Part shown: piece by piece, positions 26,165 to 28,360 of the stretch
How positions within the stretch are numbered: position 1 is the first letter of the stretch
Layout of the letters: each line of letters starts with the position of its first letter
Assembly (NCBI RefSeq): GCF_020745735.1
Contig: NW_026869102.1
Location: 56,367 to 120,366, forward strand
DNA from: Hemiscyllium ocellatum
Lineage: Eukaryota
Reading direction: 5' to 3'
DNA length: 64,000 nucleotides
Made by a program: the position numbers and the translations under genes
Notes under the pieces: generated by a model
Databases searched by the model: none
What the model was told of the DNA's origin: nothing
The model's input: the letters and a program-made list of their open reading frames with translations, nothing else

Positions 26165-28360
26165 AACAGTCAAACAGGGTGGTACACTGGCTCAGGGGTT
26201 AGCTCTGCGACCTCCCAGCACGAGGGATCCAGGTTCAATTCCAGGGGAATTGGCCCCACTACATGACCCACCGTGTTCGGGGTTGGGGGGAATTGGCCCC
26301 ACTACATGACCCACCGTGTTCGGGGTTGGGGGGAATTGGTCCCACTACATGACCCACCGTGTTTGGGGTTGGGGGGAATTGGCCCCACTACATGACCCAC
26401 CGTGTTCGGGGTTGGGGGGAATTGGCCCCACTACATGACCCACCGTGTTCGGGGTTGGGGGGGATTGGCCCCACTACATGACCCACCGTGTTCGGGGTTG
26501 GGGGGGATTGGCCCCACTACATGACCCACCGTGTTTGGGGTTGGGGGAATTGGTCCCACTACATGACCCACCGTGTTTGGGGTTGGGGGGGATTGGCCCC
26601 ACTACATGACCCACCATGTTCGGGGTTGGGGGGAATTGGCCCCACTACATGACCCACCGTGTTTGGGGTTGGGGGAATTGGTCCCACTACATGACCCACC
26701 GTGTTTGGGGTTGGGGGGAATTGGCCCTGCTACATGACCCACCGTGTTTGGGGTTGGGGGAATTGGCCCCACTACATGACCCACCGTGTTCGGGGTTGGG
26801 GGGAATTGGCCCCACTACATGACCCACCGGGTTGGGGGGAATTGGCCCCGCTACATGACCCACCGTGTTCGGGGTTGGGGGGAATTGGCCCTGCTACATG
26901 ACCCACCGTGTTCGGGGTTGGGGGGGATTGGCCCCACTACATGACCCACCGTGTTCGGGGTTGGGGGGGATTGGCCCCACTACATGACCCACCGTGTTTG
27001 GGGTTGGGGGAATTGGTCCCACTACATGACCCACCGTGTTTGGGGTTGGGGGGGATTGGCCCCACTACATGACCCACCATGTTCGGGGTTGGGGGGAATT
27101 GGCCCCACTACATGACCCACCGTGTTTGGGGTTGGGGGAATTGGTCCCACTACATGACCCACCGTGTTTGGGGTTGGGGGGAATTGGCCCTGCTACATGA
27201 CCCACCGTGTTTGGGGTTGGGGGAATTGGCCCCACTACATGACCCACCGTGTTCGGGGTTGGGGGGAATTGGCCCCACTACATGACCCACCGGGTTGGGG
27301 GGAATTGGCCCCGCTACATGACCCACCGTGTTCGGGGTTGGGGGAATTGGCCCCACTACATGACCCACTGTGTTCGGGGTTGGGGGGAATTGGCCCTGCT
27401 ACATGACCCACTGTGTTTGGGGTTGGGGGGAATTGGCCCCACTACATGACCCACCGTGTTTGGGGTTGGGGGAATTGGCCCTGCTACATGACCCACCGTG
27501 TTCGGGGTTGGGGGGAATTGGCCCCGCTACATGACCCACCATGTTCGGGGTTGGGGGGAATTGGCCCTGCTACATGACCCACCGTGTTTGGGGTTGGGGG
27601 GAATTGGCCCCACTACATGACCCACCGTGTTTGGGGTTGGGGGAATTGGCCCCACTACATGACCCACCGTGTTTGGGGTTGGGGGGAATTGGCCCCACTA
27701 CATGACCCACCGTGTTTGGGGTTGGGGGAATTGGCCCCACTACATGACCCACCGTGTTCGGGGTTGGGGGGGATTGGTCCCGCTACATGACCCACCATGT
27801 TTGGGGTTGGGGGGAATTGGCCCTGCTACATGACCCACCATGTTCGGGGTTGGGGGGAATTGGTCCCACTACATGACCCACCGTGTTTGGGGTTGGGGGG
27901 AATTGGCCCCACTACATGACCCACTGTGTTTGGGATTGGGGGGAATTGGCCCCACTACATGACCCACCGTGTTCGGGGTTGGGGGGAATTGGCCCCACTA
28001 CATGACCCACCGTGTTCGGGGTTGGGGGGAATTGGCCCCGCTACATGACCCACCGTGTTTGGGGTTGGGGGGAATTGGCCCTGCTACATGACCCACCGTG
28101 TTCGGGGTTGGGGGGAATTGGTCCCACTACATGACCCACCGTGTTTGGGGTTGGGGGGAATTGGCCCTGCTACATGACCCACCGTGTTTGGGGTTGGGGG
28201 GAATTGGCCCCGCTACATGACCCACCGTGTTTGGGGTTGGGGGGAATTGGCCCCACTACATGACCCACCGTGTTCGGGGTTGGGGGGAATTGGTCCCACT
28301 ACATGACCCACCGTGTTCGGGGTTGGGGGGATTGGCCCTGCTACATGACCCACAGCATGG
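26165..28360 (+). repeat. 43-bp minisatellite of about 50 copies, seeded by a truncated tRNA-derived SINE head (26165-26250)
   Basis: Unit ccactacatgacccaccgtgttcggggttggggggaattggcc, with variants t/c and g/t, tiles 26250-28355 continuously. It is preceded by the tRNA-like head ggtggtacactggctcaggggttagctctgcgacctcccagcacgagggatccaggttcaattccagg. The unit resembles the SINE internal segment gtgaattggccatgctaaattgcccgtagtgttaggtaagggg. Confidence 0.85.

What the first reader, a model, noticed from the sequence alone, without database searches (positions are those of the whole stretch)
26165..28360. Minisatellite born from an internal SINE segment inside a KIF22 intron
A truncated tRNA-derived SINE head (26165-26250) runs directly into about 50 tandem copies of a 43-bp unit. 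The unit's sequence, gaattggccccactacatgacccaccgtgttcggggttgggg, is homologous to the SINE's own central segment, gaattggccatgctaaattgcccgtagtgttaggtaagggg, seen in the intact copy at 7142-7447. This shows a SINE body segment being converted into a 2.1-kb tandem array.
Basis: seen in the sequence. Interest (0 to 1): 0.6.

Follow-up and report, generated by a model that had tools for sequence, protein, structure and literature searches.

The report
SINE-derived minisatellite in KIF22 intron
About 50 tandem copies of a 43-base unit inside an intron of the kinesin gene KIF22 most likely grew from a short piece of an old mobile element (a SINE) whose front end still sits beside the array; this is a clean example of a known route to tandem repeats, not a new kind of element.

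Summary
TRF finds a 43-bp array at 26244-28353 (49.7 copies, 92% matches). Directly upstream, 26177-26242 is the 5'-complete head of a SINE related to three intact copies in the window (E about 1e-5, 76% identity) and keeps Pol III boxes A and B. The array lies in the KIF22 intron 25931-29921, in sense orientation.

The claimed unit-to-SINE homology is real but modest. It is not significant under strict scoring. Under softer scoring z = 4.6 and p = 1.3e-3 (60,000 shuffles), on the forward strand only. In an unbiased profile search of the array-masked window, the two best hits are the same internal segment of two SINE copies (E = 0.01). Head plus first unit align colinearly to a SINE lacking 106 nt of core (74% identity).

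The simple story has gaps. The core and the whole SINE tail are missing, no target-site duplication was found, and birth at this locus could not be tested because no other genome was reachable.

A perfect 451-bp internal duplication shows recent multi-unit exchange.

The closest known kind is the SINE-derived satellites of squamate reptiles, so this is a new member of a known kind. Interest is low to moderate.

The parts
26177..26242 (+). 5'-complete head of an old SINE, related to the Pol III/tRNA-type head of the resident SINE family. Box A TGGCTCAGGGG is at 26188 and box B GGTTCAATTCC at 26232.
   Evidence: Local alignment to the SINE 5' end gives z = 13.7. nhmmer gives E = 1.2e-5 to 4.9e-5 against the three resident heads, about 76% identity. 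Boxes A and B each have one mismatch and lie 44 nt apart, as in the intact copies. ARAGORN and Rfam do not call it a tRNA.
26244..28353 (+). Minisatellite of 49.7 copies of a 43-bp unit, GGGGAATTGGCCCCACTACATGACCCACCGTGTTCGGGGTTGG. GC is 61% and the sense strand is G-rich.
   Evidence: TRF. Unit list. Composition. Variable sites are dominated by CpG to TpG/CpA changes.
26243..26291 (+). Head-to-array junction and first unit. CAATTCC|AGGGGAATTGGCC reads through like a SINE lacking its 106-nt core (CAATTCC + AGGTGAATTGGCC), with one mismatch at the junction.
   Evidence: Global alignment of head plus first unit to a core-deleted SINE copy gives 84/114 identical positions, 74%.
26431..26881 (+). 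First copy of a perfect 451-bp (about 10.5-unit) internal duplication.
   Evidence: The longest exact run at offset 463 is 451 bp. The next best at any other offset is 104 bp. The unit-variant string shows the block CDEFDBGAH twice.
26894..27344 (+). Second copy of the perfect 451-bp internal duplication.
28331..28353 (+). Terminal truncated unit, ATTGGCCCTGCTACATGACCCAC. The array ends here. The flank beyond it has no significant SINE similarity.
   Evidence: Flank against SINE on both strands gives z < 0. Flank-only test against the SINE tail gives p = 0.71.
25931..29921 (+). KIF22 intron that hosts the head and the array, both in the sense orientation of the gene.
   Evidence: tblastn exon hits and splice signals.
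7142..7447 (+). Intact reference SINE copy. The segment homologous to the array unit is about 7304-7344.
   Evidence: blastn. Alignment A1. nhmmer hit of the unit profile, E = 0.0098.
22161..22474 (-). Intact reference SINE copy. The segment homologous to the array unit is 22301-22264.
   Evidence: nhmmer hit of the unit profile, E = 0.015.
24750..25050 (-). Third SINE copy. It carries a 12-bp deletion inside the very segment that matches the array unit.

Best explanation
This is a SINE-derived minisatellite.

Proposed history:
1. An old SINE with a Pol III/tRNA-type head inserted in sense orientation into a KIF22 intron. It is related to, but older than or of a different subfamily from, the three intact copies in the window. 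From memory the family looks like the SacSINE1/Deu type of cartilaginous fishes.
2. A segment of about 42 nt lying 3' of the conserved core (AGGTGAATTGGCC..GCTAAATTGCCCGTAGTGTTAGG in the intact copies) was duplicated in tandem.
3. It then expanded by replication slippage and unequal exchange to about 50 units, which were kept similar by concerted evolution.
4. The 106-nt core between box B and the amplified segment, and the whole SINE tail, are gone. Either the parent already lacked the core, or they were lost during the rearrangements that built the array.

The array is still turning over in multi-unit blocks and carries methylation-type CpG decay. It most likely has no function and is tolerated in the intron.

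Shown: the array, the head, the colinear same-strand homology, the intron location and the block duplication. Inferred: the order of events, the birth at this locus, and neutrality.
For: Array. Head with 5'-complete SINE homology and both Pol III boxes. Unit against SINE: z = 4.56, 75 of 60,000 shuffles, forward strand only, negative controls clean; z rises to 5.5-7.3 for the CpG-restored and TG-variant units. Unbiased profile search of the masked window ranks the same SINE segment first and second. Head plus first unit are colinear with a core-deleted SINE at 74% identity, and the junction reads straight through. A perfect 451-bp internal duplication shows recent unequal exchange. Three of the five variable sites are CpG to TpG/CpA. 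The sense strand of the array has no AG dinucleotide and no GT[AG]AG donor, so it offers no cryptic splice sites. The architecture, an array plus a terminal extension reaching a SINE terminus, is the one reported for most SINE-derived satellites in squamates (PMC10702118).
Against: The homology is weak in absolute terms: about 67% identity, not significant under strict scoring, and a profile E-value of only about 0.01. The 106-nt core and the entire tail are missing, so simple expansion in place is not enough. There is no convincing target-site duplication; a single 9-mer match has a chance expectation of about 0.2. The head is only about 76% identical to the resident family. No second locus, orthologous intron or second individual could be examined. 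I looked for a short direct repeat in the SINE that could have seeded the duplication, and shuffled sequences did as well.
Confidence: 0.68

Rival explanations
1. The array is SINE-derived but was not born at this locus. It would be one copy of a dispersed family: either an sSat-type satellite present at many loci, or a core-deleted SINE subfamily or head-plus-repeat composite element that brought a short tandem duplication with it, which then expanded.
For: In squamates, SINE-derived satellites with this architecture occur at tens to thousands of loci per genome (PMC10702118). Related Deu-type SINE lineages with a large body deletion exist (LmeSINE1a/d; PMC5499810). The head is only 76% identical to the resident copies, and the head-unit junction is clean. 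The neighbourhood is rich in satellites, and sSats are reported to favour such regions.
Against: There is no other copy of the unit or of this head type in the roughly 35 kb of the window that lies outside the tandem arrays. No tail, A-rich end or target-site duplication marks a retroposed composite. The external scans found nothing, but those collections hold almost no vertebrate non-coding DNA, so this counts for little.
Confidence: 0.2
2. Chance adjacency. An unrelated G-rich minisatellite arose from non-SINE intron sequence next to a 3'-truncated SINE, and the resemblance of the unit to the SINE body is coincidental.
For: Under strict scoring the match is not significant. The profile E-value is only about 0.01. 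The core and tail of the SINE are absent, and the 3' flank shows no SINE relic.
Against: Shuffle p = 1.3e-3, forward strand only, with clean negative controls. The top-ranked hits in the whole masked window are the SINE segment. The match is colinear with and downstream of the head. The SINE truncation point coincides exactly with the start of the array, and the junction reads like SINE sequence.
Confidence: 0.09
3. The copy number and internal structure are partly an assembly artefact. The array is real, but its length and the perfect 451-bp duplication come from mis-assembly of repeat reads.
For: A 451-bp exact repeat sits inside an array whose units otherwise average 94% identity. That pattern is also what a duplicated assembly path would produce.
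Against: The array has ordered, diverse unit variants and sharp unique flanks. Recent unequal exchange gives the same pattern and is normal for minisatellites. I could not test this further.
Confidence: 0.03

Closest known systems
SINE-derived satellites (sSats) of squamate reptiles (Vassetzky, Kosushkin and Ryskov 2023, Mob DNA; PMC10702118)
   Same: Both are tandem arrays whose unit matches part of a tRNA-type SINE. Both have a terminal extension that reaches one SINE terminus, here the 5' head. Units are more alike than dispersed SINE copies are, unit subvariants occur in blocks, and the arrays sit in satellite-rich regions.
   Different: The unit here is shorter: 43 nt against 67 to about 215 nt. 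The head and the unit are not contiguous in the reference SINE, with 106 nt missing. The SINE family and the host lineage differ; this is not a squamate and probably a cartilaginous fish. Only one locus is known here, whereas sSats were defined genome-wide. The authors state that it is uncertain whether sSats occur outside squamates.
Classical GC-rich intronic minisatellites (VNTRs)
   Same: The unit falls in the 10-100 bp range and the array is about 2 kb. It is GC-rich with strand asymmetry (G-rich sense strand, GC skew +0.155), and it shows block-wise unequal exchange. The class definition and typical properties are from established knowledge.
   Different: Most minisatellites have no identifiable source sequence. 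Here a source can be named. Length polymorphism, the hallmark of VNTRs, could not be tested.
SVA elements of hominoids (SINE-VNTR-Alu composite retrotransposons)
   Same: A SINE-related piece is joined to a GC-rich VNTR of 30-50-bp units. This comparison is from established knowledge.
   Different: SVA is a mobile, multi-copy, LINE-1-mobilised composite with a poly(A) tail and target-site duplications. None of those features was found here, and copy number could not be tested.
tRNA-related tandem families of amphibians (PolIII/TAN of newt, OAX of Xenopus, Rana/PolIII), as reviewed in PMC10702118 and PMC12054243
   Same: Pol III/tRNA-like sequence is associated with tandem arrays.
   Different: In those families the tRNA-like part lies inside a 200-360-nt repeating unit, and the link to a SINE is unconfirmed. 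Here the head is outside the unit, present once, and the unit matches the SINE body.

Membership tests
SINE-derived satellite (sSat, sensu PMC10702118) | The tandem repeat unit is homologous to a portion of a SINE present in the same genome. | tested here: met
   Shuffle test z = 4.56, p = 1.3e-3, forward strand only. The unit profile's best two hits in the masked window are the same SINE segment. The support is modest, at about 67% identity.
SINE-derived satellite (sSat, sensu PMC10702118) | A longer terminal unit shares similarity with the SINE up to one of its termini. | tested here: inconclusive
   A 5'-complete SINE head abuts the first unit. Head and unit are separated by 106 nt in the intact SINE, so the extension is not contiguous.
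SINE-derived satellite (sSat, sensu PMC10702118) | At least four tandem monomers. | tested here: met
   49.7 copies.
SINE-derived satellite (sSat, sensu PMC10702118) | Several loci in the genome, showing satellite-like family behaviour. | not testable with these tools
   No eukaryotic genome could be searched. Scans of metagenome and viral contigs, and a protein search with array ORFs, found nothing, and these are uninformative.
Minisatellite / VNTR | Unit of about 10-100 bp in a head-to-tail array of hundreds to thousands of bp. | tested here: met
   43 bp x 49.7 = 2110 bp.
Minisatellite / VNTR | Length polymorphism among individuals. | not testable with these tools
   Exact-ORF look-ups for a second assembly found nothing. 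A perfect 451-bp block duplication suggests recent instability.
tRNA-type SINE of the Deu superfamily (SacSINE1-like), as parent element | Pol III box A and box B with tRNA-like spacing. | tested here: met
   Box A at 26188 and box B at 26232, one mismatch each, 44 nt apart. The intact copies have the same layout.
tRNA-type SINE of the Deu superfamily (SacSINE1-like), as parent element | The head is recognisable as tRNA-derived. | tested here: not met
   ARAGORN finds no tRNA in the window. Rfam gives no tRNA hit for the head or for an intact copy's head, only a weak mascRNA-like and T-arm-like signal in the intact copy. The description as tRNA-related rests on the boxes and the literature (PMC5499810).
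tRNA-type SINE of the Deu superfamily (SacSINE1-like), as parent element | Presence of the Deu-domain, matched to a published consensus. | not testable with these tools
The assignment of the resident copies rests on my memory of the core motif. At the array locus the core is absent anyway.
tRNA-type SINE of the Deu superfamily (SacSINE1-like), as parent element | LINE-derived 3' tail and target-site duplications at the insertion. | tested here: not met
   There is no SINE tail after the array (p = 0.71). There is no convincing TSD; the only candidate is a 9-mer with chance expectation of about 0.2.
SVA-like mobile SINE-VNTR composite | Dispersed copies with a poly(A) end and target-site duplications. 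| tested here: not met
   There is no A-rich end and no TSD at this locus. Copy number is not testable.

The most novel reading that the evidence does not exclude
This locus could be one member of a genome-wide family of SINE-derived satellites in a cartilaginous fish. That would be the first documented outside squamates, where the discoverers left the question open. A stronger version is a Pol III-headed head-plus-VNTR composite that spreads. The head keeps both Pol III boxes, and no TTTT terminator occurs for about 2.7 kb downstream, so the whole array could in principle be transcribed from the SINE promoter as a long repeat RNA.
Probability: 0.15. Interest if true: 0.55.

Novelty: new member of a known kind. 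Interest (0 to 1): 0.3.

Why it matters
Few cases directly link dispersed elements to tandem repeats. The one systematic study covers only squamate reptiles and says it is unknown whether the phenomenon occurs elsewhere (PMC10702118). A 2025 paper still treats squamates as the only confirmed case (PMC12054243). This locus still carries the donor's head and a traceable unit in a different vertebrate lineage. It would extend the taxonomic range and give a concrete locus for studying how a minisatellite starts. It would also be a likely length-polymorphic marker inside KIF22. It does not change any concept: tandem arrays derived from transposable elements, and unequal-exchange dynamics, are well established.

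Tried and rejected
(1) SEEDING REPEAT: I looked for a short direct repeat in the SINE body, about 41-42 nt apart, that could have seeded the first duplication. It does not stand out from shuffled sequence, so I dropped it.

(2) 3' RELIC: The 3' flank (AGCATGGTTAGG against SINE GTAGTGTTAGG) looks like a SINE relic by eye. The flank-only test gives p = 0.71, so it is not supported.

(3) TARGET-SITE DUPLICATION: The only candidate is a 9-mer, AAAACAGTC, at 26163 and 28816. Its chance expectation is about 0.2 and it lies 460 bp beyond the array.

(4) THIRD PROFILE HIT: The third-ranked profile hit (29118-29071, minus strand, E = 0.24) is a LINE reverse-transcriptase fragment (DF.KAFDKVPH..LL.KI.AHG). 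It is not a SINE, and the resemblance is chance.

(5) ORTHOLOGOUS INTRONS: The protein search returned no cartilaginous-fish KIF22; the best hits are 69% identical, from assorted vertebrates. No comparative locus could be fetched.

(6) SAME MINISATELLITE ELSEWHERE: Pattern scans of metagenome and viral contigs gave 0 hits. A protein search with array ORFs from both strands gave 0 hits. Exact look-ups of the ORFs flanking the array were not on record. All of these are uninformative negatives.

(7) tRNA DETECTION: ARAGORN and Rfam were both negative for the head.

(8) G-QUADRUPLEX: The array has no canonical short-loop G4 motifs, only long-loop patterns. I make no claim from this.

(9) HIGHER-ORDER REPEAT: TRF's period-128 row scores barely higher than period 43. 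The unit string shows no regular 3-unit periodicity.

(10) SINE CONSENSUS FROM THE LITERATURE: No supplements are held, and a motif search of paper texts returned only primer strings.
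Full report
WHAT IS THERE

Tandem Repeats Finder reports one array at 26244-28353: period 43, 49.7 copies, 92% matches, 2% indels, consensus GGGGAATTGGCCCCACTACATGACCCACCGTGTTCGGGGTTGG (sequence read). Splitting it on the ATTGG[CT]CC anchor gives 50 units. Thirty-six are exactly 43 nt, eleven are 42 nt, two are 36 nt, and the last is a 30-nt piece made of 23 nt of truncated unit plus 7 nt of flank. Mean pairwise identity among the 43-mers is 94.4%. The array is 61% G+C, and the + strand is G-rich with a GC skew of +0.155.

GENE CONTEXT

A tblastn probe with KIF22 (the human sequence written from memory, used only as a probe) and with the C-terminal parts of database KIF22 proteins places exons on the + strand from 9944 to 25930. 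The exon ending at 25930 reads ...WREHNGPFSQ and is followed by gt. The next exon, 29922-29977, has a polypyrimidine tract and cag before it and gtaaga after it. It reads IEELEKIGMSLRTLSTFMR, which matches the conserved ...EDLEKVEG..K....F.KAN.. end of KIF22. The array therefore lies in intron 25931-29921, in the sense orientation, and fills about half of it.

THE HEAD

The window holds three full copies of one SINE family: 7142-7447 (+), 22161-22474 (-) and 24750-25050 (-). They are 91-95% identical to each other. The stretch 26177-26242, immediately left of the array, aligns to the first 67 or so nt of this SINE, starting at the SINE's own 5' terminus and ending at box B. The local alignment gives z = 13.7, and nhmmer gives E = 1.2e-5 to 4.9e-5 against each of the three copies at about 76% identity. 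Box A (TGGCTCAGGGG, 26188) and box B (GGTTCAATTCC, 26232) each differ from the Pol III consensus by one base and lie 44 nt apart, as in the intact copies.

ARAGORN and Rfam do not recognise this head, or an intact copy's head, as a tRNA. Calling it tRNA-derived therefore rests on the promoter boxes and on the literature for SacSINE1-type elements (PMC5499810).

Nothing in the window matches this head better than the resident family does.

IS THE UNIT HOMOLOGOUS TO THE SINE BODY?

This is the crux of the finding, and the answer depends on how the alignment is scored.
- With +2/-3 scoring, only the 12-nt core GGTGAATTGGCC aligns, and that is no better than shuffles.
- With +1/-1 scoring, the unbiased TRF consensus aligns over about 50 nt to the SINE segment TGTGCGGGTCAGGTGAATTGGCCATGCTAAATTGCCCGTAGTGTTAGG. 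This gives z = 4.56, and only 75 of 60,000 dinucleotide-preserving shuffles reach the score (p = 1.3e-3).
- The reverse strand gives nothing, and the units of the two other arrays in the window give nothing.
- A CpG-restored unit and the CCCTGCTACA unit variant score higher still, z = 5.5 to 7.3.

As a test free of target choice, I built a profile from 45 real unit pairs and searched the whole window, both strands, with the array masked. The two best hits are the same internal segment of two SINE copies: 7304-7344 (E = 0.0098) and 22301-22264 (E = 0.015). The third SINE copy has a 12-bp deletion exactly there and does not hit. The third-ranked hit (29118-29071, E = 0.24) is a LINE reverse-transcriptase fragment, so that resemblance is chance.

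The similarity is therefore real but modest, at about 67% identity. What makes it persuasive is that it is colinear with, downstream of, and on the same strand as the adjacent head.

JUNCTIONS, AND WHAT IS MISSING

Head plus first unit align end to end with a SINE copy from which the 106 nt between box B and AGGTGAATTGG have been removed. Identity is 84/114 (74%). The junction CAATTCC|AGGGGAATTGGCC differs by one base from CAATTCC+AGGTGAATTGGCC. The missing 106 nt are the conserved core of the element.

On the right, the array ends in a truncated unit (…CATGACCCAC). The flank has no significant similarity to the SINE on either strand (flank-only p = 0.71). The whole SINE tail is therefore absent. 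I found no convincing target-site duplication.

A simple expansion of an internal segment in place is therefore not sufficient. Either the core and the tail were deleted, or the parent was a core-deleted variant. Body-deleted lineages are known among related Deu-type SINEs (LmeSINE1a/d; PMC5499810).

ARRAY DYNAMICS

Written as variant letters, the units read AABACCDEFDBGAHIJCDEFDBGAHKLM... The block CDEFDBGAH occurs twice. At the base level, 26431-26881 and 26894-27344 are a perfect 451-bp duplicate at an offset of 463 bp, while the next longest exact run at any other offset is 104 bp. This is the signature of a very recent unequal exchange or slippage event of about 11 units. The alternative is an assembly artefact.

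Three of the five variable sites are CpG sites that show all the decay products:
- CCC[CG/TG/CA]CTACA: 6, 10 and 34 units.
- CCCAC[CG/CA/TG]TGTT: 39, 5 and 3 units.
- TGTT[CG/TG]GG: 23 and 24 units.

This fits germline methylation acting on an array that started with CpG at these sites.

The sense strand of the array contains no AG dinucleotide and no GT[AG]AG donor, so it offers no cryptic splice sites to KIF22. That is consistent with the array being tolerated in the intron.

MOST LIKELY MECHANISM

1. An old SINE related to the resident family retroposed into the intron in sense orientation. This is inferred from the 5'-complete head.
2. A segment of about 42 nt, 3' of the core, was duplicated. 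This is inferred.
3. The duplicate expanded by slippage and unequal sister-chromatid or allelic exchange and was homogenised. The block duplication and the high unit identity show this process directly.
4. The core and the tail were lost, or the core was never present. This is unresolved.
5. CpG decay and continued block exchange produce the present variant pattern. This is shown.

I assign about 0.68 to this account. I assign 0.20 to the variant in which the array is SINE-derived but arrived as part of a dispersed family, 0.09 to chance adjacency, and 0.03 to a substantial assembly artefact.

COMPARISON WITH WHAT IS KNOWN

The closest described kind is the SINE-derived satellites (sSats) of squamate reptiles. 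These are arrays whose units match parts of the Squam1/2/3 SINEs, mostly with a longer terminal unit reaching one SINE terminus. Their units are more homogeneous than the dispersed SINE copies, they show alternating subvariants, and they favour subtelomeric, satellite-rich regions. They occur at tens to thousands of loci (PMC10702118).

The present locus shares that architecture and sits 9 kb upstream of a satellite of at least 26.8 kb. It differs in four ways:
- The unit is shorter: 43 nt against 67-215 nt.
- Head and unit are not contiguous in the reference SINE.
- The SINE family and the host lineage are different.
- Only one locus is known.

The sSat authors state that it is uncertain whether such satellites exist outside squamates. 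A 2025 paper still lists the amphibian tRNA-like tandem families as unconfirmed (PMC12054243). My literature searches found no report from cartilaginous fishes.

HOST TAXON AND SINE FAMILY

That the host is a cartilaginous fish is an inference. It rests on my recollection of this SINE's sequence as typical of sharks, on the literature placing SacSINE1-type elements in Chondrichthyes, and on KIF22 being roughly equidistant, at about 69% identity, from tetrapod, teleost and coelacanth proteins.

The vertebrate Deu-domain is described as about 330 bp with a core of about 120 bp (PMC4824008). If the resident SINE is a DeuSINE, the amplified segment lies inside that extended domain, 3' of the core. 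I could not test this membership against a consensus sequence.

VERDICT

This is a new member of a known kind. A repeat specialist would find it a neat example rather than a surprise, so I score interest at 0.3. If a genome-wide search showed a whole family of such arrays, or a mobile head-plus-VNTR composite, interest would rise to about 0.55. I put that probability at about 0.15.

LIMITS

No eukaryotic genome collection or repeat library could be searched. All external look-ups were negative and are uninformative. Copy number and the perfect duplication depend on the quality of the assembly.

Noticed in passing
window 37200-64000: A 30-bp satellite of about 893 copies (87% matches) runs off the end of the window. 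GC is 62% and GC skew about +0.31. The unit is exactly 10 codons. The + strand carries an uninterrupted 2,239-aa open frame (37185-43904, GIGDGTSRWS-type decapeptides), and the - strand frames read PSPIPDQRDV-type repeats. A Pfam Spt5-CTD hit (E = 4.5e-18) is probably a repeat artefact. Whether this is a pure satellite or a giant coding repeat is open.
   Followed up: partly
window 34415-36055: A third tandem array has a 48-bp unit (16 codons), 34.6 copies and 90% matches. It carries a 442-aa open frame on the - strand (34788-36116, PTPDTVPAPCLREGVN repeats). It has no similarity to the SINE and no Pfam hit.
   Followed up: partly
window 35962-37056 (- strand): A 364-aa non-repetitive ORF matches the NUFIP2 family (PF15293, E = 2.4e-21). 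It is sandwiched between the 48-bp array and the 30-bp satellite, and both of those have periods that are multiples of three with open frames on the same strand.
   Followed up: partly
window 1106-2167: A partial duplicate of KIF22 lies upstream of the gene. It is 87-95% identical to 11595-11926, 12709-13238 and 14084-14298 and includes copies of three exon segments. It lacks 13239-14083, which holds the GKTHTM P-loop exon, so it looks like a pseudogene fragment from a segmental duplication.
   Followed up: partly
window about 29050-29210 (- strand): A LINE reverse-transcriptase fragment (…DF.KAFDKVPH..LL.KI.AHG…) lies in the same KIF22 intron, downstream of the array. It produced a weak chance hit to the unit profile.
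   Followed up: yes
window 24750-25050 (- strand): The third intact SINE copy has a 12-bp deletion inside exactly the segment that is homologous to the array unit. This hints that the stretch is prone to indels (alignment A1).
   Followed up: no
window 26177-28898: The first TTTT on the + strand after the SINE head's Pol III boxes is at 28898. A transcript started from the head would therefore meet no canonical Pol III terminator within the array. This is speculative and was not pursued.
   Followed up: no
window 29489-29757 and 9487-9767: These two stretches are 69% identical copies of an unidentified dispersed repeat on the + strand, one in the array-bearing intron and one upstream of the first detected KIF22 exon.
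   Followed up: no
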